Shown here: positions 1,341 through 63,909 of the stretch, in pieces
Layout of the letters: each line of letters starts with the position of its first letter
Position numbering within the stretch: position 1 is the first letter of the stretch
Source: a virus
Taxonomy: Duplodnaviria > Heunggongvirae > Uroviricota > Caudoviricetes
Virus record (IMG/VR): IMGVR_UViG_3300025316_000590
Coordinates: 128,134 to 192,133 of that record
DNA length: 64,000 nucleotides
Direction: 5' to 3' (one strand)
Position numbers and translations under genes: made by a program
Notes under the pieces: model-generated
What the model saw: the letters and a program-made list of their open reading frames with translations, nothing else
Database searches by the model: none
What the model was told of the DNA's origin: nothing

Positions 1341-1714
1341 AGACGTTCACCAAGAAGAACCCGAACCCCGCCAAGTCGGCGAAGGCCAAGAAGCCCAAGA
1401 AGCCGCGAGGCAAACCACAGGCGTGGATCTTCAGGCTGGTCAGCAGTCGCGGCAGCGACCACGTGCAGTGCGTTATCCTGCCCGCCGGCACGACGCCGAA
1501 GCTGGCCCGCGAGTTCTCCGAGACGTGGGCCTATAACATAATTCGTGGATCCGCTATCGAAAGCTGCACCGTGAGCTACAAGCGGGTGCGGCTGGCCCCC
1601 AGGGCACAACTGCTGAAGCAGTGGGACGCAGTCTGCAAGTGGTACGCCAACGCGAAGCTGGCGAAGGAAGAGCAGGCCGCCAAGCTGAACCCGCACGATT
1701 GGACGCACCGATGA
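1337..1714 (+). CDS. hypothetical basic protein (Lys/Pro-rich N-terminus)
   Basis: ATGA start-stop overlap; KKPKKPRGKP basic N-terminus suggests nucleic-acid binding. Confidence 0.4.
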   Translation: MKTFTKKNPNPAKSAKAKKPKKPRGKPQAWIFRLVSSRGSDHVQCVILPAGTTPKLAREFSETWAYNIIRGSAIESCTVSYKRVRLAPRAQLLKQWDAVCKWYANAKLAKEEQAAKLNPHDWTHR

Positions 1715-1890
1715 CCATTCGCAGTACCGCAGACTGTGCTCGCCAGATGGTTCAACGCGACGCTGACCAGGCTGCCCGCGAAGGGCGAACACCAGAATAT
1801 GATATGAAACGGAGGGCTACTAAGGCCCGCCAGCGGAGCGTGAATGCACCGCCAAACAGCGGCCCAAAACAGCCGCGAATCCTACCCTGA
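1711..1890 (+). CDS. small hypothetical protein
   Basis: in-frame ATG inside 1621..1890 ORF overlapping upstream stop (ATGA). Confidence 0.25.
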   Translation: MTIRSTADCARQMVQRDADQAAREGRTPEYDMKRRATKARQRSVNAPPNSGPKQPRILP

Positions 1891-1920: not shown

Positions 1921-1955
1921 TTGACGCGGATCGGCTTCGGGGTAAGATGTACGAT
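1921..1955 (+). promoter_or_regulatory. sigma70-like promoter candidate (TTGACG -N17- TAAGAT) upstream of sigma-like gene
   Basis: TTGACGcggatcggcttcggggTAAGATg located in the only sizeable AT-richer intergenic gap before 1994. Confidence 0.3.
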
Positions 1956-1993: not shown

Positions 1994-2518
1994 ATGAGGG
2001 AGTACCGTCGATGGTTGGGTGAAATTGCTGGTTACGCCCAACGAAAGTGTGCTGCGTATGCCCGTCAACTGGCCGGGCAATATGATGTGGACGACCTTAT
2101 GCAAGAGGCGTTCCTGGTGTTCGACAAGGCCGTGGCTAAGTACGGCGAACTCGTCAAAAGCGAACGCCATTTCATGGGCATCTACAAGAGGTGCTTGTTC
2201 AACCGCTTCTGGTCGCTGGAACGCGATATGAAGTCGGCAGCCCGCCGCGGATGCGGTGGGTTCTGGCTCGGCGAACATGATCGAGAAGTTCTGGACAAAC
2301 ATCACGACGAGGTGTGTCTGGATGATGAGCCAGAGGTGATACGGTGGTTGAAGGCCCGCATTGGCGTGGACGGCAACCAGTGGTATCGCGGGCGGCGTTT
2401 CATAGCGATTCGCCAGAAGCGAAACGAACCGCCTTTGAATTACCTGCGACGCGTGGTCGGGGGTGACGAGAAGGTGATGGCCATAGCCCTTGCCTATATG
2501 GGCATTGAGGACGAGTAG
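1994..2518 (+). CDS. sigma-factor region-2-like protein (truncated sigma, T4 gp55-like architecture)
   Basis: DVDDLMQEAFLVFDKAVAKY...FMGIYKRCLFNRFWSLER resembles sigma70 region 2.1-2.4; 174 aa with no region 4; RBS AAAGGATAGCTCTATG. Confidence 0.45.
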   Translation: MREYRRWLGEIAGYAQRKCAAYARQLAGQYDVDDLMQEAFLVFDKAVAKYGELVKSERHFMGIYKRCLFNRFWSLERDMKSAARRGCGGFWLGEHDREVLDKHHDEVCLDDEPEVIRWLKARIGVDGNQWYRGRRFIAIRQKRNEPPLNYLRRVVGGDEKVMAIALAYMGIEDE

Positions 2519-2520
2519 CC

Positions 2521-2718
2521 GTGTATGTAGTGAAACGCAAACCGGGCGAAAGCATAGTGATCGACGACCGAATTACCGTTACGGTTTTAGAGTCGACCGA
2601 TTGCCGCGTCAAGCTCGGAGTCGAGGCTGCCGGTGACGTATCGGTTCGCCGCGTGGAACCTGAAAATTTAACCGAAGCACCCGCCGATGCGGGAGCAACC
2701 AACCAAGGAGAAGTTTGA
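2521..2718 (+). CDS. csrA: carbon storage regulator CsrA/RsmA homolog (GTG start)
   Basis: VKRKPGESIVIDDRITVTVLE...VKLGVEAAGDVSVRRVE aligns with CsrA consensus MLILTRKVGESI.IGDDI.VTVLEV.G..VRIGI.AP..V.V.R.E. Confidence 0.75.
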   Translation: MYVVKRKPGESIVIDDRITVTVLESTDCRVKLGVEAAGDVSVRRVEPENLTEAPADAGATNQGEV

Positions 2719-2720
2719 TC

Positions 2721-3368
2721 ATGTCGATTGAAAGTGAACTGCTGAAGGCCACAGGCCAAAAGGTGCGAGGGTCAAAGGAAGCGGAGCAGACGTACTTGAC
2801 CCGCATTGCTCTGGAGTCCAACAACCTGGGCGACGACGACTGGAAGAAGCTGTCGGTCGAGGCTCAGGAGTGGATGAACGTCGCGTCCGAATCCTACGAC
2901 AGCAAGCGTCCGATTCCGGGATTCGGCGGCAAGGCCGCACCCGCCGACGCCGCACCCGCCGACGCCGATCCTGCCGAGGCCGAAGCCGAGGGCGATGAGG
3001 TCGAAGGTGACGAGACCGACGCCGCCGAGGAGGCCGCAGCCGAAGAAGCTCCCGCGCCCGCCAAGGCCAAGCCCGCCAAGGCTGATAAGTCAGCCGTCAC
3101 CAAGGCCGAGAAACCGGCCAAGGCCGAGAAGCCGAAGAAGGCCGAGAAGGCTCCCGCCGCGGACGGCGAGAAGCGTGGCGGATCCCGTCGCATGCGTGAG
3201 CTGATCTGCGAAGACCCGACCTTGGAGCAGCCCGCCCTGAAGGCGAAGCTCGACGAGGAAGGTTACAAGATCAGCGATATCACCTTCAACGCGACGTACT
3301 ACGACGTCAAGTCGACCATCCGCCTGCTCTCCGACCTGGGCAAGCTCAAGGCCAAGGTCAGCGTCTGA
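2721..3368 (+). CDS. hypothetical protein with Ala/Lys/Pro/Glu-rich low-complexity core (histone-H1-like/IDP)
   Basis: RBS AAGGAGAAGTTTGATCATG; PAKAKPAKADK...AEKPKKAEKAP repeats flanked by structured N/C regions. Confidence 0.45.
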   Translation: MSIESELLKATGQKVRGSKEAEQTYLTRIALESNNLGDDDWKKLSVEAQEWMNVASESYDSKRPIPGFGGKAAPADAAPADADPAEAEAEGDEVEGDETDAAEEAAAEEAPAPAKAKPAKADKSAVTKAEKPAKAEKPKKAEKAPAADGEKRGGSRRMRELICEDPTLEQPALKAKLDEEGYKISDITFNATYYDVKSTIRLLSDLGKLKAKVSV

Positions 3369-3457: not shown

Positions 3458-4738
3458 ATGTCGAAGCGTATGTTTGATGCTACCCGTGCTGAAGTGTGGG
3501 TGGCGATAGACGTTCCCGACTCCGATGCGATGATCGAAGCCCTGCACGAATTGGACAGGGCCAATCGACCGTTCGGTGTCAAAGTCGGCCTGGAGGTGGT
3601 GACCGCACTGGGGCTGCCGCACGTGGTCAGCATCGTCCGCAACAGGCCGATGTTCATCGACCTGAAGTTCAAGGACATCCCCAATACCGTGGGAGGAGCA
3701 TCTCGTGCCCTTCGGCGGTTTCATCCCACGATCTTCAACGTGCATGCCAGCGGTGGCGTTCGTATGATGAAGGCCGCCGTTGAGAATCGCGGTGAATCGG
3801 CGGTCTTCGCCGTCACTGTGCTGACCAGCCTGTCCGAACAAGAGGCTGGCATCAGCTACGGCGTGATATCTACGGGCTACGCAGTCGAAACGTTCGCCAA
3901 GCTGGCTGCCGAGGCCGGTGTGCAGGGGCTGATCTGTTCGGCAGCCGATCTGGCTGTGCAGGTAAGCCCCGACCTGCTGAAGCTGACGCCCGGCATTCGC
4001 CCGGATTGGGCTTCGGACAAGGGCGACCAGAAACGCGTCACGACGCCCGCCGAGGCCGCTGTGGCGGGTGCTGACGGCATCGTGGTAGGCAGGCCGATAC
4101 TTTCCCCGCCCAACGGCATCTTGCGGTGGCGAGCCCTACAGCGGGTTCACGACGAGTTCTGGTTGCTATCTGCACTGAAGGAACTGGGTGGGCTGCTGAA
4201 CGGGCACTACGTCTACAAGTCTGGTCGGCACGGGCCGCAGTACTTTAACAAGGACGTGTTGCTCAACGATGCCGATGCTGTACGTCAGGTGGGCCAGATG
4301 ATCGTCGACAGTCTTCCTGACGGCTACCGCTTCGATGTGGTGGTCGGCCCGGAGACGGGCGGTGCAAAGCTCGCTCGCGCGATTGGCGATATCATGGGTC
4401 AGCCGTGGGTTGGTGCGGAGAAGACGACCGATGGATTCTGGTTCCAGTCATGGAGCGATAAGTGGAAGGAGGTTCTCATCGTCGAGGATGTCCTGACCAC
4501 GGGCGGCAGTCTGGACAAGGTAGTCGCCGAGGTGAATCGTCTGGTTCGTGGCAGTAGCGACGCAGGTGGGCTGGTACAGGTCAAGCGAGCCGTATTGAAC
4601 CGCGGTGGCGTGGAGATGGTGAGCCTGGAGACCATAGCATCCCTCGATGCTGTAAGTTATTCCGCCGAGGAGTGTCCGTTATGTAAGGCCGGCGCGCCTA
4701 TCAGCACCGACGCCGGTCACGCAAAACCAAAGGTGTAG
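3458..4738 (+). CDS. bifunctional orotidine-5'-phosphate decarboxylase / orotate phosphoribosyltransferase fusion (ODC N-terminal, OPRT C-terminal)
   Basis: N-half has ODC signature IDLKFKDIPNTV; C-half has type-I PRT PRPP loop VLIVEDVLTTGGSL and YVYKSGRHGPQYF; RBS AAGGAGACAATCATG. Confidence 0.75.
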   Translation: MSKRMFDATRAEVWVAIDVPDSDAMIEALHELDRANRPFGVKVGLEVVTALGLPHVVSIVRNRPMFIDLKFKDIPNTVGGASRALRRFHPTIFNVHASGGVRMMKAAVENRGESAVFAVTVLTSLSEQEAGISYGVISTGYAVETFAKLAAEAGVQGLICSAADLAVQVSPDLLKLTPGIRPDWASDKGDQKRVTTPAEAAVAGADGIVVGRPILSPPNGILRWRALQRVHDEFWLLSALKELGGLLNGHYVYKSGRHGPQYFNKDVLLNDADAVRQVGQMIVDSLPDGYRFDVVVGPETGGAKLARAIGDIMGQPWVGAEKTTDGFWFQSWSDKWKEVLIVEDVLTTGGSLDKVVAEVNRLVRGSSDAGGLVQVKRAVLNRGGVEMVSLETIASLDAVSYSAEECPLCKAGAPISTDAGHAKPKV

Positions 4739-6397: not shown

Positions 6398-6405
6398 GTG
6401 TCTGG
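6398..6405 (+). promoter_or_regulatory. GTGTCTGG motif instance upstream of polA
   Basis: 26 nt before ATG 6431. Confidence 0.35.
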
Positions 6406-6430
6406 TGGAGACTACAGGAGGAAAGTAACA

Positions 6431-9070
6431 ATGGGCGACGGTAAGTTTTTCACCAGAATAGACCTGAAGGCCCCGACAACGGGGAGGGTCAAGCCGCGGA
6501 CGACTGGCCGCGACGAGGCGTACTATAACGAGAGGGGCTGCGACGCATGCCCGCTGGTCGATACCTGCGGTGGAATCGAGGATTCCCAGGTGAAGCCATC
6601 GGGAACGTCGCGGCCCCTCATCTACGTTCTGGGCGAAGCCCCAGGCAAAGATGAGGCTGAAGCGGGTGAACCGTTTGTTGGCAAGGCGGGCCAAGAGCTA
6701 CGCCGCCATCTGCCCGATATCAGTATCTGTAGATTCAACAACCCGGTGCGAGCACGGCCCGAGAACAACCGTGTGCCGACGATGTCCGAGGTGGAGTCAT
6801 GCCGACAGCACCTCGTGGCTGATATCGAACGCACCAAGCCTGCGGCAATCCTTGCCTGCGGAGCAACTGCCCTGAGTTGGTTCATCGGCGGTGAGCCACG
6901 AATCACAACGTGGCGTGGGCGTCGCCTGCCCGTGCAGGTAGGGAGTCATCGGTGCTGGATGTATCCGGTGATGCATCCGTCCTTTATCATACGGCAGGGC
7001 GGTGACAAGGGTGGACCCGACCGCGAGGCTCGCCAGCATGCCGTCATGTTCAAGCACGATATCAAGCGGTGTTTCGCCGAGACCAAGAAGGGTATCGACC
7101 TGGGTGACCTGCCCTGGAACATCGATGCTCTGGAGGATGGCGTGGAACTGGCGACGCCCAAGCTCGGCGTCAAGTGGGTGGTGAAGATGCTAGAGGACGC
7201 CGCGAAGGCGAAGATCTGCGGCCTCGACCTGGAAACCAACCGCGTGCGTCCCTACGCCAGCGGATCCCGAATTCTGAGCATGGCCATCAGCACGCCCAAG
7301 ACGGCGTTTGCATTCCCGATAGGCCACAGTGATGCGTGGTGGTCGGCAGAGGACGAGATCGTACTGACGAGTGCCATCCGAGGATTCCTGCTAACCAAGA
7401 TGATGAAGGTTGTCCACAACGCCAGCTTCGATATGGAGTGGCTGCTGCGGTTCTACGGCGTGCAAATCCTGAAGGATGATCTGTGGAATACGTGGGGTTG
7501 CACGCAGAACCAAGCGTACACCCTCGACGAACGCAAAGAGGACAGGATGCAAAGCCTCGATAGCCTGTGCCTGGAACGCTTGGGCACGCGGCTGAAGAAG
7601 TACAGCGACGTCGATGCCAAGCGTGGTGAGGTGGCCGAGATCGGGAAGCTCCTGCGGTACAACGCCCTTGATGCTAAGTGCCATAGGCTTCTGTACGAAG
7701 AGCAGAACCGGGCACTGAAAGCGACGGGTATGCTGAACACGTATCTCGATCATGTTCGTCGCGTACCGTTCCTCGTCTTGATGCAGCACAAGGGCGTTCC
7801 CGTCAGCCAGCCGGTGGTCGAGGAACTGCTGACAGACACTAACACCAAGATCAGGTTGGTAACGCAATCCGCCCTTGATACGCCCGAGGCTCATCAGTAT
7901 CGCAATACATGGGGCACGCCGTTCATCATCAACGGTAAGGGCAGCCGCGAATGCCTGGAGAAGGTGTTCGGGCACATCGAAGCCCTGTACCGCAAGGACG
8001 CCAACGGCGAGGAAGTTTTCACGACCGATAGCAGCGTATTCAGCACTATTGATTCGCCACTGGCCCACAGTATCAGCGAGTTCCGCGAGTGGACGAAGAT
8101 ACGCGATACTTATCTTCTGCCCATGCGTGCCGGTGCGGGTAGCTTGGTTTACGAGGACGGCAATCTGCATGCCAACTTCAATGGGACGTTCACCGATACC
8201 GGGCGGCTGTCGTCTGACGGCCCGAATATGCAGAACTTTCCCAAGCGTGAACACGCCGAGGTGCGGAAGATGGTATCGGCCCCTGAAGGCTGGCTCATTG
8301 TATCCGCCGATATGAAGCAACTGGAAGTCTGCGTGGCGGCCCAAATGTCGGGCGACAAGCGGTTGCTGAAGGCTGTCCGCGAACGGGCCGACATTCACAT
8401 GAAGTACGCGATCATGCTCAGCGAGGGCGTGCCGTTGTATTTGGAACTGGTCGGTCACGGTGATATCAAGAAGGCACGCTCGGCGATCAAGAGCCTGATC
8501 ACCTTCCCGTTTCTGTACGGTGCCATCCATACGACTGCCTCCCGCAACGTTCTGGCCAGCATGTCACAGTTCGACCGCGACAGGGCCGAAAGCGTCCGCA
8601 AGAAGGTGGAGAGAACCTGCGAGGACATCGAAAAGGAATTCTGGATTGAGTATCGTGATGTCAAGGCATGGCAGAACAAGCTGATGTCGGACTACGAGAA
8701 GAACGGCTATGTCACCTGCATGAACGGGCGTCGCCGCCGCGGGCCGCTGTCGATCAACCAGATCGCTAATACGCCTATTCAGGGCAGTGCCAGCGACCTT
8801 GTGGTGGACGCCGGCAATCGGCTGGCTCAGAAGGGCCTGCGGGACAATAACATGGCCCTGGTGATGAATATGAATATTCACGACGACCTGACGACCTTCG
8901 CCAAGAAGGAGGCCGCCGACGACGTGATGGCCGAAATGGTTGAAACCATGTTGCACCCCGGTTACGAGAACTGGGACATCAAGGCATGCCCGCTGGGCGT
9001 GGAGGTTTCTATCGGTTCCAACTGGTCGAATCAGAAGGCTATCGGGACGTGGTATAGCGACGAAGCCTGA
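6431..9070 (+). CDS. polA: DNA polymerase I (family A) with N-terminal UDG family-4-like domain and 3'-5' exonuclease domain
   Basis: UDG-4 motifs GEAPGKDEAEAGEPFVGKAGQEL and HPSFI plus Cys cluster; Exo I CGLDLETN; Pol motif A DMKQLEV, motif B K..FPFLYG, motif C NIHDDL; RBS AGGAGG 9 nt before ATG 6431 (alternative GTG 6398 would add N-terminal DYRRKVT). Confidence 0.9.
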   Translation: MGDGKFFTRIDLKAPTTGRVKPRTTGRDEAYYNERGCDACPLVDTCGGIEDSQVKPSGTSRPLIYVLGEAPGKDEAEAGEPFVGKAGQELRRHLPDISICRFNNPVRARPENNRVPTMSEVESCRQHLVADIERTKPAAILACGATALSWFIGGEPRITTWRGRRLPVQVGSHRCWMYPVMHPSFIIRQGGDKGGPDREARQHAVMFKHDIKRCFAETKKGIDLGDLPWNIDALEDGVELATPKLGVKWVVKMLEDAAKAKICGLDLETNRVRPYASGSRILSMAISTPKTAFAFPIGHSDAWWSAEDEIVLTSAIRGFLLTKMMKVVHNASFDMEWLLRFYGVQILKDDLWNTWGCTQNQAYTLDERKEDRMQSLDSLCLERLGTRLKKYSDVDAKRGEVAEIGKLLRYNALDAKCHRLLYEEQNRALKATGMLNTYLDHVRRVPFLVLMQHKGVPVSQPVVEELLTDTNTKIRLVTQSALDTPEAHQYRNTWGTPFIINGKGSRECLEKVFGHIEALYRKDANGEEVFTTDSSVFSTIDSPLAHSISEFREWTKIRDTYLLPMRAGAGSLVYEDGNLHANFNGTFTDTGRLSSDGPNMQNFPKREHAEVRKMVSAPEGWLIVSADMKQLEVCVAAQMSGDKRLLKAVRERADIHMKYAIMLSEGVPLYLELVGHGDIKKARSAIKSLITFPFLYGAIHTTASRNVLASMSQFDRDRAESVRKKVERTCEDIEKEFWIEYRDVKAWQNKLMSDYEKNGYVTCMNGRRRRGPLSINQIANTPIQGSASDLVVDAGNRLAQKGLRDNNMALVMNMNIHDDLTTFAKKEAADDVMAEMVETMLHPGYENWDIKACPLGVEVSIGSNWSNQKAIGTWYSDEA

Positions 9071-11369: not shown

Positions 11370-11809
11370 TCAACAGCCTTACTGCTATCGAATGGACTCG
11401 CGTGCGGGCGTTCTGCCGGGACAAACGCCCGGATGAGATTACACCAAACGCCTTGTACCGGGCGGCACGTGGTTTGAAGGCTGGTAGCCGGAACACGAAC
11501 ATGGTGACCGATAGCATCATGCTGGACGCTGTGCGTATGTGGTGCGTGAAGCCCGAACCTCCCAAGGAGAAACCTGTGCCGAAGCACTTATACATTACCG
11601 TGACTGGCCCCGCGATGTCGGGGAAGTCGACTGTCGTTGAGGTGATCGCTCAGGCTCTGGCTCGTGCTGGGTTGAAGTGCGATGTGAATTACGGGGATGA
11701 CGGTCAGCCAACATCACCGTTGTCCCGACGCATTGATGCCATGAAGATTGCCGCACCGAATATCACTATTAACCAACGGCAGACCCAGCGTGAGCCTTCC
11801 AAAGATTAA
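11366..11809 (+). CDS. small P-loop NTPase/kinase-like protein
   Basis: ATGA overlap with clamp loader; Walker A VTGPAMSGKST. Confidence 0.4.
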   Translation: MINSLTAIEWTRVRAFCRDKRPDEITPNALYRAARGLKAGSRNTNMVTDSIMLDAVRMWCVKPEPPKEKPVPKHLYITVTGPAMSGKSTVVEVIAQALARAGLKCDVNYGDDGQPTSPLSRRIDAMKIAAPNITINQRQTQREPSKD

Positions 11810-12668: not shown

Positions 12669-13178
12669 ATGCCAACCAACGAACGAACGACAACGCGAAG
12701 CAACCTTCGCATCGACAAGCACGCCCTGGATCGCGAGGTCTGCGAGCAGCCGGAGAAATCACTGAATGCCGGCCAGGAAGCTGCGAGGCTCGCCTCGGTG
12801 CGTGATTTTGCGAAGGACAGAATGAAGGTGGTCGCAGCCGAACGTGCCCTTGCTATCCGCGAGGAACTGACCGCCGAGGGTGGACGTGTTACGGAGGCTC
12901 AGATCGATGCTCGTCTCACGACAGACTCCGAACGAATCGATGCACATCACGAGTATATTCGAGCTGAACGTGACGCCGCGATGGCTGAGGCCGAACGTGA
13001 TGCATGGAAAGAACGAGGCTACATGCTCAAGTCTCTCGGCGATCTGTACGCCGCAGGCTATTGGGCCAACGCAAGCCTCGCCGGTGACCGACGTGCCGCC
13101 GAAGAACGTGCAGGTGACGAGGCCCGCCAAGCCGTGGCGGACCAGCGACGTCGCATGAACAGCACCTCGCGAGAATGA
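12669..13178 (+). CDS. hypothetical coiled-coil protein
   Basis: RBS GAGGAGAACGGTTATG after GTGTCTAG motif; ER/DA-rich heptads. Confidence 0.4.
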   Translation: MPTNERTTTRSNLRIDKHALDREVCEQPEKSLNAGQEAARLASVRDFAKDRMKVVAAERALAIREELTAEGGRVTEAQIDARLTTDSERIDAHHEYIRAERDAAMAEAERDAWKERGYMLKSLGDLYAAGYWANASLAGDRRAAEERAGDEARQAVADQRRRMNSTSRE

Positions 13179-18580: not shown

Positions 18581-18584
18581 ACGT

Positions 18585-19058
18585 CTATTCAAGCTGTCGT
18601 GTATAGCCCTTGATGATGTTACGAATCGTTGTGGGGTTGACGTTAAATCGTATTCCGAGTCGGTAGTACCCAAATTCACCAGTCGCGTAAAGGAGACGAG
18701 CTTCAATAACCTGGGGTGTAGTCATCTTAGCGTTATAGTGGGTGGCTCCGTGCATGTGCCGTCTTTTGGAAACACAGTCGTCTTCGTTATCTTGCTGTGT
18801 TCCGAGGAACAGGTGTGTAGGCTCGACGCACGGTGGGTTATCACAGTGGTGACAGACATACATACCATCCGGTATTGGGCCGTAAGCGAGTTCATAAGCG
18901 ACGCGGTGGGCGTACAGTGGCTTCGAGTTCGTGCCACCGGATCCTATCATTCCATAGCCACTTCTGGTTCCGCCCATCCAGATCAAACATCCTCCGATTC
19001 TTCGGCGTTTGGGCACAGTGTGGAATCTAACATCAAGTGGTATGGCGTGGCGGGACAT
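18585..19058 (-). CDS. HNH endonuclease (HNH_3/AP2-type)
   Basis: minus strand; YAHRVAYELAYGPIPDGMYVCHHCDNPPCVEPTHLFLGTQQDN motif. Confidence 0.7.
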   Translation of the reverse strand: MSRHAIPLDVRFHTVPKRRRIGGCLIWMGGTRSGYGMIGSGGTNSKPLYAHRVAYELAYGPIPDGMYVCHHCDNPPCVEPTHLFLGTQQDNEDDCVSKRRHMHGATHYNAKMTTPQVIEARLLYATGEFGYYRLGIRFNVNPTTIRNIIKGYTRQLE

Positions 19059-19129
19059 AGTTATCTCCTTTGCTTTATTGTAGCAAAGCTATTGCTAATA
19101 CGCAAGAGTTGTTACGGAAAGACGATATC

Positions 19130-30179: not shown

Positions 30180-30181
30180 TC

Positions 30182-30364
30182 ATGGAACATGTATCGCGGC
30201 AGCGGAAGTACCAGATACTGCACCAGCGGGCCGGTCTGTGCATCAAGTGCCCAGAGAAGGCCGTGGCCGGGCGGTACTGCCAGCGACACCACGACATCGA
30301 GCGTCGCCAGCGACGGGTACGCCGGGCGACATGGGTGACGAGACATGCCGAAGCTGGCGAGTAA
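30182..30364 (+). CDS. small zinc-ribbon-like protein
   Basis: CIKCPEKAVAGRYCQRHH. Confidence 0.3.
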   Translation: MEHVSRQRKYQILHQRAGLCIKCPEKAVAGRYCQRHHDIERRQRRVRRATWVTRHAEAGE

Positions 30365-30403
30365 CATCATCAAGCACGACCATGCAAACAGCAATATGTA
30401 CGG

Positions 30404-30625
30404 TTGCCAACCTTGCCCTGTATGCAAATCACTATATCGAGCCCCGTACAAGAAGAAAGGCGAGGAACGTCGACTGTGGTCACAAAGAAATCTGTAACGA
30501 AGAGGATTCCGATGAGTAGTATCATCGACAACATTCAGAAGAACTGTCTGAGCTACTGGTATCCCAAGATCGCAGCCGCGGGCCTGACCGAAGCAGTCAG
30601 GCGATGGAATAGGAGATCACCATGA
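30404..30625 (+). CDS. hypothetical protein
   Basis: 73 aa ORF. Confidence 0.25.
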   Translation: MPTLPCMQITISSPVQEERRGTSTVVTKKSVTKRIPMSSIIDNIQKNCLSYWYPKIAAAGLTEAVRRWNRRSP

Positions 30626-32067: not shown

Positions 32068-32068
32068 T

Positions 32069-32548
32069 ATGACCAAAAAACCAACAAGATCTGAAGTACT
32101 GCAAAAGTTCGGCACGGCGATCTCCGTGCTGGGCAAAGACGCTGTAGTGATTCATCTCAGCAAGATCACCTATCGCGAGCGTGAGATACTCAAGCTGCGG
32201 TTCGGTTTTGGCGATGGCTACTGCTACACATTTCAGGAGGTGGCCCACATCTTCAAGACCACCGTCGCCCGCATCCGCCAGATCGAGGAGAAGGCCATCC
32301 GTAAGATGTGCGCCCTGATGAACGAGGTCAAAGTACCGGAAATCCAAAGCATGAACATCGACGAGGCCAAGCGAGCCAAAATAGCGTTAGCTGAATCGGT
32401 GGGCACGCTGGTGCGAGAGTTCGAGCTACGGACCGGCCTGACCGTGCTGAGCATATCGCTGGGCCGCAAGGAATATTCAAGCTCCGAGATGCCGGCGGGA
32501 GTGACCAAGTCGCTGCTGACCGGAGTTCACGTATCCGTGAGGATATGA
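32069..32548 (+). CDS. sigma-70 region-4-like HTH protein (possible transcription co-factor)
   Basis: YREREILKLRFGFGDGYCYTFQEVAHIFKTTVARIRQIEEKAIRKM matches sigma region 4.2 HTH; no region 2. Confidence 0.45.
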   Translation: MTKKPTRSEVLQKFGTAISVLGKDAVVIHLSKITYREREILKLRFGFGDGYCYTFQEVAHIFKTTVARIRQIEEKAIRKMCALMNEVKVPEIQSMNIDEAKRAKIALAESVGTLVREFELRTGLTVLSISLGRKEYSSSEMPAGVTKSLLTGVHVSVRI

Positions 32549-39480: not shown

Positions 39481-40038
39481 ATGCCGAGTCACTATATAAT
39501 ATGCCCGCAACGGAACGGTGACATAACCGAAGCCCGTATGCTAGTGCAGAACTACGGTTTGGTGGTTGGTGAATACGACGTATTCATGCCAACAGCCAAT
39601 TATGTAGGTGACTGCGTGTATCTGAGCGTGTTGCCATCGAGTGAAGCCTACCAGAAGATGCGGGAGTGGATCGACCGCCGGCGGCACACGAACAGGCCAG
39701 AGTCGGCAATCGCCGCAGCCTGCCCGTCGAACCAGCGTGCCTGGGTGCTGTACTATCCGCCCGGCAGATCTTATCAGGGTGGCAGGGAAGTCGAAAACTG
39801 TGAATTATCGGTTCAAATACTACAGGCCCTGGAAAGCTGCGACCGCTGGCCGGTGGGTGTAGCCCTTCCTGCCTCCGAGCCTGGTGAAATAGGATGGCGG
39901 CTGGAGAGCGTAGGTCCGCCTGTGATTCCGCAGTGGATCGAAACCAACGGTGGCCAGTTATGGACGCCAGCGATGGAAGACGCACCCAGGCCGGTGCGGC
40001 GACGTATTCAAACATTACCCGATAGTGGTGAAATCTAA
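39481..40038 (+). CDS. hypothetical protein, paralog of 42455..43438; C-terminus RRRIQTLPDSGEI
   Basis: shared YGL..GEY and (W)VL(Y/T)YPPG(R/E)S.QG.R.V.N motifs with 42455 protein. Confidence 0.45.
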   Translation: MPSHYIICPQRNGDITEARMLVQNYGLVVGEYDVFMPTANYVGDCVYLSVLPSSEAYQKMREWIDRRRHTNRPESAIAAACPSNQRAWVLYYPPGRSYQGGREVENCELSVQILQALESCDRWPVGVALPASEPGEIGWRLESVGPPVIPQWIETNGGQLWTPAMEDAPRPVRRRIQTLPDSGEI

Positions 40039-44352: not shown

Positions 44353-45780
44353 ATGTTTGCAAAAGTGTTTCTGATAGGATTCATGTTCGTGGCTGCATTG
44401 GTGGCTCACAGCTACTGGCACTACGCTGTCGTTCCGGAGGTGAACGACCAAATGGCTTACAACCAGCTTGATCACAGTCGCTCCCGGCATGAGCAGCAGA
44501 ACATGCGATTCTGGCAAGTCGCCAAGCAGTACCCAGGCACGATCATCTGGACTTCGTTCTCCCTGCTGACCTTGCTGACCTTCATGCCCGAACTGAAGCG
44601 CGCCACGAAGGCGGGCAAAACCTTTGCGACCAGTATGTCACCAGCGTTGTTGCTGCTATTGCTTGTCGGTGGGTGTCAGTCGCCCTACGATACTCCGGTC
44701 TTCGTCGATGTCGGTAATTCCGAGACGGCATTCATGGTGAAGAAGGAGGACAACAGCAAGCAAACGGCGACGAAGACCACGCAGATGTTCATTCAGCAGA
44801 CTGCCGAGGGCAAACCCTGGGTGCAGTCGAAGCGCATCCTTATTCCGTACCGCTGGCAGGACATGGGTCATGGTTGGAACAACGGCAAGTTTATCCCCGA
44901 CGCTCAGGTTTTCATTGTAGATCGCGTTCCATGTACGCGAGAGTGGACCGCAGCCCCGCACACAGGAACGTCGTTCAGGGACCAGGCCATTGACGTCGAG
45001 TCCAGTGATTCGGTGAACTTCTCCTGCGGCATCTCCATCGTTGCCCGTATTCTGACTGAGGAAGACGCGGTTAAGTTCTTCTTCAACTATCCGGCGAACA
45101 AGGATAGGGTCATCAAGGCGGGCGGCGGATACAAGGATGACTACGTCGTTAAGACCGTAGGGCTTGAAGACGTCATGGATACCGAGGTGCGAGCCGTTCT
45201 CCAGCGGGTTTTCTCCGACGAGGCGGCCAAGTACACGATGGATGAAGGTCGCAATAGGAAGACCGAGTTCCTGAAGGCGATGCGAGACGAGGCTCAGAAG
45301 TACTTCGTCGAGCGAGGAATTACCATCACAAGCATTGGTATGAAGGGTGGTTTGACCTACGCAAATCCTAACATCCAGACATCCATTGACAAGGTCTTCC
45401 AGCAGCAGCAGGACAAGAACGTCGCCAAGGCCGAACAGGAAGCCGCCACGGAGCGTAAGAAGGCTTTGCAGGCCGTGGGCGAGGGCGAGGCAGCCAAGGT
45501 GCTGGCCATCAAGCAGGGCGAAGCCAAGGGCATCCAGGCTGTCGCCGACGCCAAGGCGTATGAGCTACAGAAACTTCAGGAGAACCCGCAGGCGTACCTG
45601 ATGCTGAAGCAGCTTGAAATCCAGAGCCGCATGCTGGAGACCTGGGATGGCCGCATGCCGGTGTACCTAATGAACGGCAGCAGCGGTGCAGGGCCAACCA
45701 TGCTATTGTCGATGCCCACAGCGGACGTGCCGCCCGCGAAGGCCAAGGCTGCGGTCAAGACCGCCGAGGCCGTGAAGTAA
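44353..45780 (+). CDS. membrane protein with SPFH/band-7 (stomatin/prohibitin/HflK-like) domain and C-terminal coiled coil
   Basis: N-terminal TM helices, internal lipobox-like LLLLLVGGC, band-7-like FIVDRVP...TRE...SF.D core, AKAEQEAA coiled coil; ATG 46 nt after GTGTCTGG motif. Confidence 0.5.
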   Translation: MFAKVFLIGFMFVAALVAHSYWHYAVVPEVNDQMAYNQLDHSRSRHEQQNMRFWQVAKQYPGTIIWTSFSLLTLLTFMPELKRATKAGKTFATSMSPALLLLLLVGGCQSPYDTPVFVDVGNSETAFMVKKEDNSKQTATKTTQMFIQQTAEGKPWVQSKRILIPYRWQDMGHGWNNGKFIPDAQVFIVDRVPCTREWTAAPHTGTSFRDQAIDVESSDSVNFSCGISIVARILTEEDAVKFFFNYPANKDRVIKAGGGYKDDYVVKTVGLEDVMDTEVRAVLQRVFSDEAAKYTMDEGRNRKTEFLKAMRDEAQKYFVERGITITSIGMKGGLTYANPNIQTSIDKVFQQQQDKNVAKAEQEAATERKKALQAVGEGEAAKVLAIKQGEAKGIQAVADAKAYELQKLQENPQAYLMLKQLEIQSRMLETWDGRMPVYLMNGSSGAGPTMLLSMPTADVPPAKAKAAVKTAEAVK

Positions 45781-53290: not shown

Positions 53291-53647
53291 ATGAACCAAG
53301 GCGACACCGACTTTCTGCATAATCTACTAACCCGCCTCGTCGCGGCCAACGATGCCTATCGTAAGTCAGAGTATCGTGGCCAGATCATGCGGTTCTCCGA
53401 GGACTTCGTGCGTGGCCGCGAGGTTATGTCCGACGAAGACGTCAAGAACCGCATTAAGCAGATACTGGAAGACAGGCAGGCGGCCTTCATGAGTCGCCGC
53501 ATGCCCGACGTTGAGACTGCCACAAACGCTATGATCGCCCTGGTACGGGAACTGACGAGGCCAGTCATAGTACGCCGCCGCATGCAGACACCGCCGCCCG
53601 AACCACCTGCACCGCCGCCATCATCGCGGCCTGGCTGGGAGCTTTGA
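53291..53647 (+). CDS. hypothetical protein with C-terminal VRRRMQTPPPEPP...GWEL
   Basis: ATG 15 nt after GTGTCTGG motif. Confidence 0.35.
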   Translation: MNQGDTDFLHNLLTRLVAANDAYRKSEYRGQIMRFSEDFVRGREVMSDEDVKNRIKQILEDRQAAFMSRRMPDVETATNAMIALVRELTRPVIVRRRMQTPPPEPPAPPPSSRPGWEL

Positions 53648-63059: not shown

Positions 63060-63349
63060 GGCTGAGAGAACTGAACCCGCGGTGGTGGACCTTCGCCGGC
63101 GAGACCGTACTTGTGGGCCTGACGTTCGACTGTCCCTGTTGCAGGAATATCAGGTTGGCGGTACAGTTTCATCATAAGGGACGCGAAGCCATCGACGACC
63201 AGTACATCTTGTGCCATCCGGCACGACAGGATCATACGTGGACGTTGATTGGCGACGAGGACTTTGACACGATAACCATCGAGCCGAGCATCGACGCATC
63301 GAGTGCGGGCCACGCTCATTTTCATATCACGAGAGGCGCAATAGTATGA
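63056..63349 (+). CDS. hypothetical protein (CPCC motif)
   Basis: 97 aa ORF, ATGA overlap. Confidence 0.3.
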   Translation: MRLRELNPRWWTFAGETVLVGLTFDCPCCRNIRLAVQFHHKGREAIDDQYILCHPARQDHTWTLIGDEDFDTITIEPSIDASSAGHAHFHITRGAIV

Positions 63350-63909
63350 ACCACGAACTGAATTCTTTCCTGTCCCTGCGGCCTGGTCGCGAGGCCGACC
63401 TCAAACTGGCCCAGGGCGACGCTCCCGTAGATGCCGCCGCGATTCCCGAGTCGCCCGTAGTCGACCTCAAACGCGATCCCCGAAATGATCTGTTCACGGG
63501 CGAAGACGGCAAGGAGCATTGGGGCTTTCACATGATGGTGGACTGCTCCGGCTGCAACAAGAACATCGACGACGGCAAGCAGATCAAGAAGTTCATCAAG
63601 GATCTGGTCGCGGCCATCAAGATGACCGCCGTGGGCGAGCCGTTCCTGTATAACTTCGGCACGGATTCCGATGGTGGCTGGAGTGCGTTACAGCTTATCA
63701 CAACCAGTAACATCTCCATGCACGGCGACAACCGCATCGGCAGCATGTACTTCGATATCTTCTCGTGCAAGCCGTATGACCAGTCGGTCGTCCTGAAGAT
63801 GATCGACGAACGATTCAAGCCCAAGTTCAGGAAAGTTAACTTCCTGTATCGGGATGCACCTCACGATGACCTGACAGGAAAGACAAATGAACTCACAGTG
63901 GGACGATGA
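63346..63909 (+). CDS. S-adenosylmethionine decarboxylase-like protein (SpeH/SpeD class 1 fold, pyruvoyl proenzyme-like)
   Basis: HMMVDCSGCN ... LITTSNISMHGD ... MYFDIFSC follows AdoMetDC pattern (HL.VD..GC, ESHIS.HT, D.F.C). Confidence 0.45.
   Translation: MNHELNSFLSLRPGREADLKLAQGDAPVDAAAIPESPVVDLKRDPRNDLFTGEDGKEHWGFHMMVDCSGCNKNIDDGKQIKKFIKDLVAAIKMTAVGEPFLYNFGTDSDGGWSALQLITTSNISMHGDNRIGSMYFDIFSCKPYDQSVVLKMIDERFKPKFRKVNFLYRDAPHDDLTGKTNELTVGR

What the first reader, a model, noticed from the sequence alone, without database searches (positions are those of the whole stretch)
2521..2718. Phage-encoded CsrA/RsmA homolog
A 65-aa protein matches CsrA across the whole fold, including the GxxGESIxIxDxITVTVL and VRxGIxAP-like segments. 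A phage-borne CsrA would let the phage rewire host post-transcriptional control, or titrate host RsmY/Z-type sRNAs. CsrA binds GGA in hairpin loops.
Basis: partly seen in the sequence, partly recalled or inferred. Interest (0 to 1): 0.5.

Follow-up and report, generated by a model that had tools for sequence, protein, structure and literature searches.

The report
Divergent CsrA gene on uncultured phage
A large uncultured freshwater-type phage really does carry a small CsrA-family RNA-binding regulator that is kept under selection; phage CsrA genes are already known, so this is a divergent new example, not a new kind of system.

Summary
The 65-aa ORF at 2521-2718 (+) is real and belongs to the CsrA domain family: Pfam 52.7 bits against a cutoff of 27, and the structural model matches RsmE/CsrA at 1.0-1.3 Å. 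The match stops at residue 46. The C-terminal helix is replaced by an acidic, disordered tail, and near-invariant L2 and S/T5 are Tyr and Lys. NCBIfam's ortholog-grade models are not reached. The element is a closed 192.4-kb circle with a phage-type replication/recombination module; I did not see virion genes. Two diverged sister lineages keep the same ORF174-csrA-ORF215 operon behind a footprinted sigma-70-type promoter. csrA has dN/dS 0.24, similar to the neighbouring clamp gene. More distant relatives lack csrA at that position, so it looks like an insertion. A second, divergent CsrA paralog lies about 8 kb upstream of the window. No sponge RNA, FliW gene or enrichment of binding sites was found. 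The nearest bacterial CsrAs are the non-gammaproteobacterial type, so titrating RsmY/Z is unlikely. Phage CsrAs were already described in 2020, 2021 and 2025.

The parts
1921..1948 (+). Sigma-70-type promoter (TTGACG, 16-nt spacer, TAAGAT) for the ORF174-csrA-ORF215 operon
   Evidence: The consensus scan found it. The -35 hexamer, -10 hexamer and initiation region are invariant in the diverged lineage L095, while the spacer and flanks differ. Neighbouring genes have dS of about 0.9.
1994..2518 (+). ORF174, the first gene of the operon; function unknown
   Evidence: It gets only sub-threshold sigma-70 region-2 hits: Pfam 19.3 bits against a cutoff of 24, and TIGR02937 17.4 bits against 42.9. 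Its orthologs P0165 and P0166 get no sigma hit. Orthologs sit directly upstream of csrA in two sister lineages. A homolog sits directly upstream of the ORF215 homolog in L094, which has no csrA.
2507..2511 (+). Shine-Dalgarno sequence (GAGGA) of csrA, 9 nt before the GTG start
   Evidence: Read directly from the sequence. The ortholog has GGAGGA at the same distance and also starts with GTG.
2521..2658 (+). CsrA core, residues 1-46 (beta1-beta5), including Y2, V4, K5, R6, A36, V40, V42, R44 and E46
   Evidence: Pfam CsrA 52.7 bits over residues 1-46. The model matches CsrA/RsmE structures. Column statistics against 86 relatives are.
2659..2718 (+). Acidic, Pro/Ala-rich, disordered C-terminal tail (residues 47-65) plus the stop codon; it takes the place of the canonical alpha-helix
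   Evidence: No helix is predicted, and pLDDT is about 55 for residues 51-65. The tail has net charge -4, and the whole protein has pI 4.6, the lowest of 87 family representatives. P47 stands where 88% of relatives have L/V/I.
2705..2710 (+). Shine-Dalgarno sequence (AAGGAG) of ORF215, embedded in the last codons of csrA
   Evidence: Read from the sequence. The stretch CAAGGAGAAGU is conserved in L095. This nucleotide-level constraint explains the shared 'QGEV' at the protein's C-terminus.
2721..3368 (+). ORF215: a 4-helix N-terminal domain, an ~80-aa acidic and Lys/Ala-rich disordered linker, and a 3-helix C-terminal 'X' domain. It is a conserved member of the replication module.
   Evidence: Homologs and alignment. 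AlphaFold model. No significant fold match; best E 1.8 to Lrp/ArgR-type winged-helix domains. The X domain is homologous to the 70-aa ORF next to the second CsrA paralog.

Best explanation
This is a functional CsrA-family RNA-binding regulator encoded by a large (192.4 kb), uncultured tailed-phage-like virus. It is transcribed early from a host sigma-70-type promoter, as the middle gene of a three-gene operon at the head of the replication module. By analogy with CsrA and RsmE, it most likely forms a domain-swapped homodimer. In that dimer, strand beta1 of one subunit and beta5 of the other would clamp GGA-containing RNA at or near ribosome-binding sites and change translation or mRNA stability. 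The targets would be host mRNAs, possibly also phage mRNAs. It lacks the C-terminal helix that both known protein antagonists (FliW, CesT) need, so it should act independently of the host's CsrA control. The lineage-conserved Tyr2 and Lys5 in the RNA-binding strand may shift its affinity or specificity.

What is shown: family membership, fold, conservation of the key residues, purifying selection, operon structure and promoter conservation. What is inferred: dimerisation, RNA binding, the identity of the targets and escape from antagonists.
For: Family and fold: Pfam 52.7 bits against a cutoff of 27; PHROG 9500; Foldseek top 15 hits all CsrA/RsmE at about 1.1 Å.

Functional residues: R6, K7, A36, V40, V42, R44 and E46 are present, including the R6-E46 salt-bridge pair. 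The positions that matter were taken from PMC6692469 and PMC7652899.

Selection: the ortholog in lineage L095 is 65% identical with dN/dS 0.24. For comparison, clamp is 0.20, OMP decarboxylase 0.23, ORF215 0.27 and ORF174 0.36.

Synteny: ORF174-csrA-ORF215 is kept in three diverged lineages.

Promoter: the -35 and -10 hexamers are invariant while the spacer has diverged.

Antagonist escape: no helix is predicted; the protein has P47, T51 and A55. CsrA(1-44) loses CesT binding (PMC5864733). FliW needs V51 and N55 in that helix (PMC7829508).

Phage nature: clamp, clamp loader, UDG-PolA, SSB-like, UvsX-like, RuvC-like, SbcCD, exonuclease, endonuclease VII and many HNH genes; 45 further PHROG families; all genes on one strand; a closed circle.

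Precedent: knockdown of the csrA homolog of phage PTXU04 reduces plaque size (PMC11879866).
Against: L2 is Tyr here and in the ortholog. L2 is 98% conserved among relatives, is the strongest RNA-binding position in C. jejuni CsrA and the third strongest in E. coli. I47, another strong E. coli position, is Pro, and L4 is Val, so canonical GGA binding is not assured. NCBIfam equivalog cutoffs are missed by about 30 bits. The whole protein is unusually acidic at pI 4.6. In the window, high-affinity-type sites (CANGGANG) are not enriched: 38 found against 43 +/- 7 expected. No leader is enriched in GGA. No conserved GGA-in-loop hairpin occurs at the operon's ribosome-binding sites. The host is unknown. 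Virion genes were not seen: I could read only 83 of 192 kb.
Confidence: 0.7

Rival explanations
1. It is a phage-internal timing regulator. Its main targets are the phage's own transcripts (for example a switch from early to late translation), possibly working together with the second paralog, and not the host regulon.
For: It sits in a conserved early operon at the head of the replication module. The same genome carries a second, divergent CsrA paralog with its own highly structured leader, z = -5.5. Both paralogs have replaced L2 and L4. That would fit a private specificity.
Against: CsrA-type sites are not enriched in the 64-kb window, nor GGA in intergenic leaders. No conserved GGA-loop hairpin occurs at the ribosome-binding sites tested. 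More distant relatives with the same replication module manage without csrA, which argues against a core role in phage timing.
Confidence: 0.2
2. It is an inhibitor of host CsrA and not an RNA regulator in its own right. It would form inactive heterodimers with host CsrA, because beta1 with Y2/V4/K5 would build a defective RNA pocket with the host's beta5. Alternatively it would act as a decoy for a host factor.
For: The hydrophobic core that forms the swapped dimer is conserved with bacterial CsrAs. The most unusual substitutions cluster in beta1, at the start of the helix region (P47) and in the tail that replaces it. These are the RNA-contacting and antagonist-contacting elements. The tail is acidic.
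Against: The basic RNA-contact residues are retained or reinforced: K5, R6, K7, R43 and R44. Y2 and K5 are conserved under purifying selection, which points to a selected binding surface and not a broken one. No heterodimerisation data exist. With no helix, a FliW decoy role is unlikely.
Confidence: 0.08
3. The element is not a virus. It would be a large plasmid or another mobile element carrying phage-like replication genes, so 'phage-encoded' would be wrong.
For: No capsid, portal, terminase or tail gene was found in the 83 kb I could read. The assembly is a closed circle. IMG/VR holds no close relative.
Against: The gene content is typical of large lytic phages: UvsX-like recombinase, endonuclease VII, SbcCD, clamp and clamp loader, UDG-PolA, many HNH homing endonucleases, and 45 further PHROG families. 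About 120 genes run on one strand with 94% coding density. The polymerase's relatives in the phage collection number 1325 phage records. No plasmid replication, partition or conjugation hits were seen. 109 kb remains unread, which is ample room for a virion module.
Confidence: 0.07
4. It is a decaying or hitch-hiking gene with no function.
For: It looks like an insertion between ORF174 and ORF215 that more distant relatives lack. Several near-invariant family positions are changed.
Against: dN/dS of 0.24 equals that of core replication genes. The ORF is intact, with the same GTG start and Shine-Dalgarno spacing, in lineages only 65% identical. The Pfam score is high in both copies: 52.7 and 56.2 bits.
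Confidence: 0.03

Closest known systems
Bacterial CsrA/RsmA/RsmE (E. coli CsrA 1Y00, P. fluorescens RsmE 2JPP)
   Same: The five-strand core is the same: 43-45% identity over 44 aligned residues at 1.0-1.3 Å. It has the same key residues R6, A36, V40, V42, R44 and E46 and the same small size.
   Different: There is no C-terminal alpha-helix; it has P47 and a disordered acidic tail. L2 is Tyr, L4 is Val, T5 is Lys and P37 is Ala. It scores below the NCBIfam equivalog cutoffs. No CsrB/RsmY/RsmZ-type RNA was detected nearby. It is encoded by a virus.
Previously reported phage-encoded CsrA homologs: 30 of 2517 phages in Sobrero & Valverde 2020 (PMC7366521); the GenBank plus IMG/VR survey in Campa et al. 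2021 (PMC8450108); PTXU04 gp28 in PMC11879866; RsmM-type genes of P. aeruginosa temperate phages phi297, PP9W and YMC11/07/P54
   Same: It belongs to the same category, a CsrA-domain gene in a phage early region. It matches PHROG 9500 and 5527. It is 46-48% identical over residues 1-46 to the Pseudomonas phage proteins.
   Different: Those proteins keep the canonical MLIL(T/S)R beta1 strand. PP9W's is 123 aa with a helix (HRSEIYQQI) and a long extension. They sit on ~40-60 kb temperate Pseudomonas phages, whereas this one is on a 192-kb uncultured genome whose polymerase is only 29% identical to any cultured phage. This genome also carries two paralogs.
Short CsrAs of Planctomycetota and Actinomycetota metagenome-assembled genomes (e.g. 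L008, L009, L012)
   Same: These are the closest sequences, at 50-59% identity. They share the MLVLSRKPGE-type core, are 59-68 aa long, have Pro/Ala/acidic non-helical tails and have no adjacent fliW.
   Different: They keep L2, L4, S/T5 and usually P37. They are chromosomal. Some follow a conserved 53-57-aa ORF that the phage lacks.
FliW-regulated CsrA (B. subtilis, C. jejuni, Geobacillus 5DMB; also the Verrucomicrobiota loci L017, L023, L024)
   Same: It shares the core fold; 5DMB is among the Foldseek hits. It also shares the non-gammaproteobacterial sequence type.
   Different: Those proteins are 75-98 aa with helix alpha1, the FliW-contact residues (V/I51, N55) and a C-terminal extension. 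Their genes lie in a fliW-csrA-flagellin arrangement. The phage protein has none of these features.

Membership tests
CsrA/RsmA domain family (Pfam PF02599) | Profile score at or above the curated gathering threshold | tested here: met
   52.7 bits against a cutoff of 27, E 4e-14, residues 1-46 matching profile positions 1-46 of 53. The ortholog in L095 scores 56.2 bits.
CsrA/RsmA domain family (Pfam PF02599) | Five-strand beta core with the CsrA topology | tested here: met
   AlphaFold pLDDT is 94-96 for residues 1-40. The top 15 Foldseek PDB hits are all CsrA/RsmE/RsmA at 1.0-1.3 Å over 44 residues, with the next hit at E > 2.8. Only a monomer was modelled.
CsrA/RsmA domain family (Pfam PF02599) | Domain-swapped homodimer | not testable with these tools
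   Only monomer prediction was available. The core hydrophobic positions (I12, I14, I18, V20, V22, V30, L32, V34, V40, V42) are conserved, which is consistent with dimerisation but does not test it.
CsrA/RsmA domain family (Pfam PF02599) | Critical RNA-binding residues R44, V42, V40, R6, R/K7 and A36, plus the R6-E46 salt bridge | tested here: met
   All are present. Their importance is taken from PMC7652899 and PMC6692469.
CsrA/RsmA domain family (Pfam PF02599) | Hydrophobic GG pocket formed by L2 and L4 in beta1 | tested here: not met
   Position 2 is Tyr, where 98% of 86 relatives have Leu and none has Tyr. Position 4 is Val, where 93% have Leu. Tyr2 is conserved in the ortholog, which has the canonical Leu4.
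CsrA/RsmA domain family (Pfam PF02599) | C-terminal alpha-helix following beta5 (E. coli residues 45-61), including hydrophobic residue 47 | tested here: not met
   No helix is predicted, and pLDDT falls to about 55. P47 stands where 88% of relatives have L/V/I. The Pfam alignment stops at residue 46.
CsrA/RsmA domain family (Pfam PF02599) | Sequence-specific binding of GGA motifs in RNA | not testable with these tools
   This needs EMSA, SELEX or CLIP. Indirect genome scans gave no signal either way.
CsrA ortholog in the strict sense (NCBIfam equivalogs TIGR00202, NF002469) | Score at or above the curated equivalog cutoff | tested here: not met
   41.5 bits against a cutoff of 70.1, and 44.3 bits against 73.
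Complete Csr/Rsm system (CsrA plus cognate antagonist) | A sponge sRNA (CsrB/RsmY/RsmZ type) or a FliW gene in the same element | tested here: inconclusive
   Rfam finds no hit in the window at gathering threshold, and none near the second paralog at E <= 10. No region is GGA-rich beyond background. The neighbouring genes get no FliW hit in Pfam. Only 83 of 192 kb could be examined.
Phage-encoded CsrA-like regulators (PHROG 9500 / 5527) | Match to the PHROG profile, plus location on a viral genome | tested here: met
   phrog_9500 E 2e-12 and phrog_5527 E 1.4e-10. The genome has a phage-type replication/recombination module and many phage-only families. Virion genes were not seen.
FliW-regulated CsrA subfamily | Helix alpha1 with V/I51 and N55, a C-terminal extension, and an adjacent fliW | tested here: not met
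   The protein has T51 and A55, no helix and no fliW neighbour. The criteria come from PMC7829508.

The most novel reading that the evidence does not exclude
This phage lineage may run a private, host-independent Csr-like circuit. It would consist of two divergent CsrA paralogs whose GG-pocket residues are re-specified (Y2/K5 in one, R2/M4/N5 in the other) and which are blind to FliW/CesT-type antagonists. Each paralog is paired with a protein carrying the same small three-helix 'X' domain, which might act as a new kind of CsrA partner or antagonist. The highly structured leader upstream of the second paralog would be its RNA control element.
Probability: 0.12. Interest if true: 0.6.

Novelty: new member of a known kind. 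Interest (0 to 1): 0.33.

Why it matters
Phage CsrA homologs have been catalogued, but their mechanism is essentially untested. The one functional datum I found is a small-plaque knockdown phenotype in phage PTXU04. This example adds three things.

First, it shows that the gene is kept under purifying selection as strong as that on core replication genes, in a lineage of large uncultured phages.

Second, it is a natural variant that keeps the R44/R6/E46 machinery but has lost the antagonist-docking helix and replaced the near-invariant L2. That makes it a useful comparator for asking which CsrA features set RNA specificity and which only serve regulation by host factors.

Third, it shows csrA behaving as an insertion into a conserved early operon, which fits an accessory host-manipulation role.

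It does not open a new category, and the uncultured host limits direct testing.

Tried and rejected
1. GGA-rich sponge or leader RNA. The divergent region beside the second paralog looked GGA-rich by eye, but it has 7 GGA in ~350 nt against a background of 5.4 +/- 2.2 per 300 nt. An A.GGA peak at L007 6376-6835 turned out to be codon usage inside a 204-aa gene. No intergenic gap in the window is enriched. Rfam finds nothing.

2. High-affinity site enrichment. CANGGANG occurs 38 times against 43 +/- 7 expected.

3. Autoregulatory GGA-loop hairpins at the ribosome-binding sites of ORF174, csrA and ORF215. Folding is no better than shuffled sequence (z from -0.3 to +1.1), and no structure is conserved between lineages.

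4. A conserved 'QGEV' motif in the C-terminal tail. It is explained by the overlapping AAGGAG Shine-Dalgarno sequence of ORF215, so it is not evidence for a function of the tail.

5. ORF174 as a phage sigma factor. It gets only sub-threshold region-2 hits. The PDB has no match. Its orthologs get no sigma hit. The label is unsubstantiated.

6. ORF215 and the X domain as a recognisable fold. The best Foldseek E-value is 1.8.

7. CsrA plus X as a general module. ORF215 homologs occur without csrA in L093 and L094. The ORF215 adjacency is therefore best explained by insertion. Only the ORF70/csrA2 adjacency remains unexplained.

8. dN/dS from close relatives. Contigs from different samples are clonal, with 0-2 SNPs per 7-10 kb, and the cluster 'variants' differ only in start-codon calls.

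9. Host assignment. Tetranucleotide usage does not separate the candidate phyla (r = 0.54-0.60). The sample accessions were not found in the literature.

10. Virion genes. The proteins just past the window have no PHROG, Pfam or tblastn hits. The metagenome and IMG/VR scans found no further DNA. DNA for the 58.7-kb sister contig is unavailable.
Full report
OBSERVATION. The ORF at 2521-2718 (+) exists as described. It has a GTG start, encodes 65 aa, and has a GAGGA Shine-Dalgarno sequence 9 nt upstream. It begins 2 nt after the stop of ORF174 and ends 2 nt before the ATG of ORF215. It matches Pfam CsrA (PF02599) at 52.7 bits against a gathering cutoff of 27 (E 4e-14), with residues 1-46 aligned to profile positions 1-46 of 53. 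It matches PHROG 9500 'CsrA-like regulator' at E 2e-12. In the PDB sequence search it finds RsmE (2JPP, E 4e-6) and E. coli CsrA (1Y00, E 9e-6). An AlphaFold model built on 82 sequences has pLDDT 94-96 for residues 1-40. Its 15 best Foldseek PDB matches are all CsrA/RsmE/RsmA chains at 1.0-1.3 Å over 44 residues, and the next hit has E > 2.8.

WHAT THE ELEMENT IS. The window maps without mismatch onto a 192,532-bp metagenome contig (ERZ27245846 k141_83342) and wraps around its ends. Window position 1 equals contig position 151,986, and window position 53,346 equals contig position 12,940. That gives a circle of 192,391 bp, which is exactly the contig length minus its 141-nt k-mer overlap. So this is a closed circular, or circularly permuted, genome.

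The window holds about 120 ORFs, all called on the + strand (the caller considered only that strand), at 94% coding density. It has no tRNA and no Rfam hit. PHROGs identify a sliding clamp, clamp loader, UDG-PolA fusion, SSB-like protein, UvsX-like recombinase, RuvC-like resolvase, SbcC/SbcD, an exonuclease and methyltransferases. Across the window and flanks they add 45 further families at E <= 1e-5. These include many HNH endonucleases, endonuclease VII, an amidoligase/glutamine-amidotransferase pair and a nucleoside 2-deoxyribosyltransferase.

The polymerase finds 1325 records in the phage collection, but the best is only 29% identical. There is no near DNA match to deposited phages and no close relative in IMG/VR. 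I could read only 83 of the 192 kb and saw no capsid, portal or terminase gene. I put 'phage' at about 0.9 on gene content. It is not proven by virion hallmarks.

HOW GOOD A CsrA IS IT. The literature defines RNA-binding region 1 as residues 2-8 and region 2 as residues 40-47 (PMC3534301). L4 and R44 are described as particularly critical (PMC7652899). The strongest E. coli positions are R44, V42, L2, I47, V40, L4, R6 and R7. In C. jejuni the order is L2 > A36 > R44 > E46 > R6 > L4. The GG dinucleotide packs against L2, L4 and V42, and the R6-E46 salt bridge is indispensable (PMC6692469).

I compared the protein with 86 single-domain representatives from an exhaustive HMMER search. It keeps M1, R6, K7, G33, A36, V40, V42, R44 and E46. 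It differs at the following positions:
- Tyr2, where 98% have Leu and none has Tyr
- Val4, where 93% have Leu
- Lys5, where 87% have Ser or Thr
- Asp27, where 79% have Gly
- Ala37, where 89% have Pro
- Val45
- Pro47, where 88% have Leu, Val or Ile

The beta1 half of the pocket is nevertheless atypical.

The protein is a singleton at 50% clustering; the next best hit has E 3e-9. It falls about 30 bits short of NCBIfam's equivalog cutoffs for CsrA. It is a member of the domain family, not an ortholog-grade CsrA.

No C-terminal helix is predicted. Residues 47-65 form a low-confidence coil with net charge -4. That gives the whole protein the lowest pI (4.6) of 87 representatives, while the core is neutral as in E. 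coli.

ORTHOLOGS, SELECTION AND OPERON. The identical protein occurs on at least 23 contigs from ENA, Logan and JGI samples, always in the same gene order. These copies are clonal, with 0-2 SNPs per 7-10 kb, so they carry no selection signal. Searching with the neighbouring genes found diverged sister lineages.

A 58.7-kb contig carries a 179-aa ORF174 homolog (64% identity), then a 59-aa Pfam-CsrA gene, then a 222-aa ORF215 homolog. The same OMP decarboxylase, endonuclease VII, clamp and (intein-bearing) PolA genes follow. No DNA was available for it.

A third lineage, seen in six samples (L095-L100), carries a 199-aa ORF174 homolog, then a 68-aa CsrA, then a 206-aa ORF215 homolog, then OMP decarboxylase and clamp. 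Its CsrA reads MYVLKRKPGESFVIDGRVTVTVLGMTPSLVRIGVEAPDDVSVCRVETETEKPVAESAGETQGEVDHVD. It is 65% identical to the window copy and scores 56.2 bits on Pfam.

The two copies share the GTG start, Y2, K5, V45, R6, R44, E46 and an acidic tail that is not expected to form a helix. V4, A37 and P47 are specific to the window copy; the ortholog has L4, P37 and T47.

Nei-Gojobori estimates give dN/dS of 0.24 for csrA (dS 0.98). Clamp gives 0.20, the OMP-decarboxylase fusion 0.23, ORF215 0.27 and ORF174 0.36. The gene is under purifying selection comparable to that on core replication genes.

The shared C-terminal 'QGEV' coincides with the conserved AAGGAG Shine-Dalgarno sequence of ORF215. I do not read it as a protein motif.

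Upstream of ORF174 there is a sigma-70-type promoter, TTGACG-16-TAAGAT, at 1921-1948. Its -35 hexamer, -10 hexamer and start region are invariant between lineages, while the spacer and flanks differ. This phylogenetic footprint indicates early transcription by host RNA polymerase.

Two more distant phages (L093, L094) have the ORF215 homolog in the same position before clamp and PolA, but no CsrA. In L094 an ORF174 homolog directly precedes it. csrA is therefore best read as an insertion into a pre-existing ORF174-ORF215 operon in one sub-lineage.

A SECOND PARALOG, OUTSIDE THE WINDOW. About 8.2 kb upstream of window position 1 lies a 74-75-aa gene on the minus strand (L007 1216-1443). Its sequence is MRVMNRKPNESVIIGGNDGISRRISVHVVAINNGTVTLGFDCIDVQRKEMWDS... 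It passes the Pfam CsrA cutoff (28.5 bits against 27) and is 36% identical to the window copy over 42 residues. It has pI 9.6 and keeps the R-x-E motif of beta5. It too lacks L2 and L4, having R2, M4 and N5.

Its upstream leader is strongly structured: -111 kcal/mol against -84 +/- 5 for shuffles, z = -5.5. The leader ends in a long hairpin plus U6 about 30 nt before the start codon, but its GGA motifs sit mostly in stems. Promoter-like sites are over-represented there, 4 found against 0.8 expected.

The 70-aa ORF convergent with this paralog is homologous to the C-terminal three-helix 'X' domain of ORF215 (42% identity over 53 aa, E 1e-8). The two are each other's only significant hit in 83 kb. 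So both CsrA paralogs abut an X-domain protein. My rough estimate of the chance of that is 1-2%.

ORF215 models as a 4-helix N-terminal domain, an ~80-aa disordered acidic and Lys/Ala-rich linker, and the X domain. It has no significant structural match. In one homolog the X domain is replaced by DUF3489. I cannot assign a function, and I treat a CsrA-X partnership as a low-probability lead.

ANTAGONISTS, TARGETS AND HOST. No CsrB/RsmY/RsmZ-type RNA or FliW gene was found. No GGA-rich region exceeds background. CANGGANG sites are at expectation. No conserved GGA-loop hairpin occurs at the operon's ribosome-binding sites.

The closest bacterial CsrAs (50-59% identity) come from Planctomycetaceae, Pirellulales, Thermoguttaceae, Verrucomicrobiota and Nanopelagicales or other Actinomycetota genomes assembled from metagenomes. 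The search pattern biases this list, and tetranucleotide usage cannot separate the phyla. The host is unresolved, but it is probably not a gammaproteobacterium.

In the Verrucomicrobiota loci, csrA lies in the classical fliW-csrA-flagellin arrangement and encodes long proteins with a helix. The Planctomycetota and Actinomycetota copies are short, have Pro/Ala/acidic tails like the phage protein, and have no adjacent fliW.

sRNA antagonists driven by BarA-UvrY are characteristic of Gammaproteobacteria and anti-correlated with FliW (PMC4682653).

Both known protein antagonists need the helix. CsrA(1-44) loses CesT binding (PMC5864733), and FliW needs V51 and N55 (PMC7829508). From this I infer that the phage protein is blind to such antagonists. 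That inference is not shown.

MECHANISM. Most likely (0.7), this is an early-expressed homodimeric CsrA-type RNA-binding protein. It would alter translation or stability of GGA-bearing mRNAs, host and possibly phage, outside the host's own CsrA control. The lineage-conserved Tyr2 and Lys5 may tune its affinity or specificity.

The rivals are as follows:
- a phage-internal timing regulator (0.2; this overlaps with the main explanation)
- an inhibitor of host CsrA acting through heterodimers or as a decoy (0.08)
- the element is not a phage (0.07)
- a non-functional passenger (0.03)

COMPARISON AND NOVELTY. Phage CsrA homologs are established. Sobrero & Valverde found them in 30 of 2517 phage genomes, including an RsmM type in P. 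aeruginosa phages. Campa et al. found many in GenBank and IMG/VR and proposed that they repress CRISPR-Cas. Knockdown of PTXU04 gp28 gives small plaques. PHROGs already has families for them.

The phage CsrAs I examined (PP9W, and L088-L090 from IMG/VR) all keep the canonical M-L-[IV]-L-[ST]-R strand. This protein is therefore a divergent new member of a known kind. Its distinguishing features are:
- a conserved Tyr2/Lys5 beta1 strand
- the absence of the C-terminal helix
- two paralogs in one genome
- residence on a 192-kb uncultured phage

Interest is modest at 0.33.

Noticed in passing
L007 1216-1443 (minus strand); about 8.2 kb upstream of window position 1, on the same 192-kb genome: A second, divergent CsrA paralog of 74-75 aa. 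It scores 28.5 bits on Pfam CsrA against a cutoff of 27, is 36% identical to the window copy and has pI 9.6. It also lacks L2 and L4. In the gene calls for L007 it is the only minus-strand gene.
   Followed up: partly
L007 ~1444-1720 (minus strand), the leader of the second paralog: A highly structured RNA region: MFE -111 kcal/mol against -84 +/- 5 for shuffles, z = -5.5. It ends in a long hairpin plus U6 about 30 nt before the start codon. Promoter-like sites lie on both strands (4 found, 0.8 expected). It could be an attenuator or a small RNA. There is no Rfam match, and the GGA motifs are mostly in stems.
   Followed up: partly
window 2721-3368 (C-terminal residues ~155-210) and L007 997-1206: A small three-helix 'X' domain occurs twice in the 83 kb I examined, each time directly beside a CsrA paralog (42% identity, E 1e-8). 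The ORF215 family also occurs without csrA in more distant phages. One member has DUF3489 in place of X.
   Followed up: partly
window 3458-4738: A phage-encoded fusion of orotidine-5'-phosphate decarboxylase with a phosphoribosyltransferase domain (pyrF-pyrE-like). It is conserved in the sister lineages.
   Followed up: no
window 63346-63909 and L005 10542-11243: S-adenosylmethionine decarboxylase followed by a spermine/spermidine synthase-family gene, which would be a polyamine-synthesis pair on the phage.
   Followed up: no
L007 5112-5987 and 7020-7700 (upstream of the window): An Amidoligase_2 gene and a glutamine amidotransferase gene lie a little over 1 kb apart, with two small ORFs between them. 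Both genes are present upstream of the operon in all three sister lineages.
   Followed up: no
window 44353-45780: A 475-aa protein with an SPFH/Band 7 domain (Pfam 39 bits; phrog_200 'lipoprotein'). This is unusual cargo for a phage.
   Followed up: no
window 6398-9070; the sister contig seen: The polymerase is a uracil-DNA-glycosylase-like domain fused to PolA. In the 58.7-kb sister phage the gene product is 1779 aa, with intein-splicing domain hits.
   Followed up: no
proteins P0002-P0008 and others: Many of the best-scoring relatives in the 1.8-billion-protein library are 109-310 aa proteins with two to four tandem CsrA domains. They may be single-chain pseudo-dimers.
   Followed up: no
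L009 2811-2984, L013 2051-2254, L014 2823-2984, L015 2811-2984: In Pirellulales and Thermoguttaceae genomes assembled from metagenomes, a conserved 53-67-aa ORF (…MENRITTFVEEERKN…PVNAI) ends immediately upstream of a short csrA that has no fliW beside it. It could be an uncharacterised CsrA-associated protein.
   Followed up: no
window 18581-19069, 30180-30621, 32068-32544, 39481-39949, 11370-11747: Five gaps of 380-490 nt with no ORF selected by my simple gene caller, in an otherwise 94%-coding region. One of them (18581-19069) has lower G+C (0.50). They could hold missed genes or non-coding RNAs. Rfam found nothing.
   Followed up: no
L007 1789-1816 and window 1921-1948: Two promoter-like sites share the same -35 hexamer (TTGACG) and a 16-nt spacer. 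This suggests a recurrent early-promoter type in this genome.
   Followed up: partly
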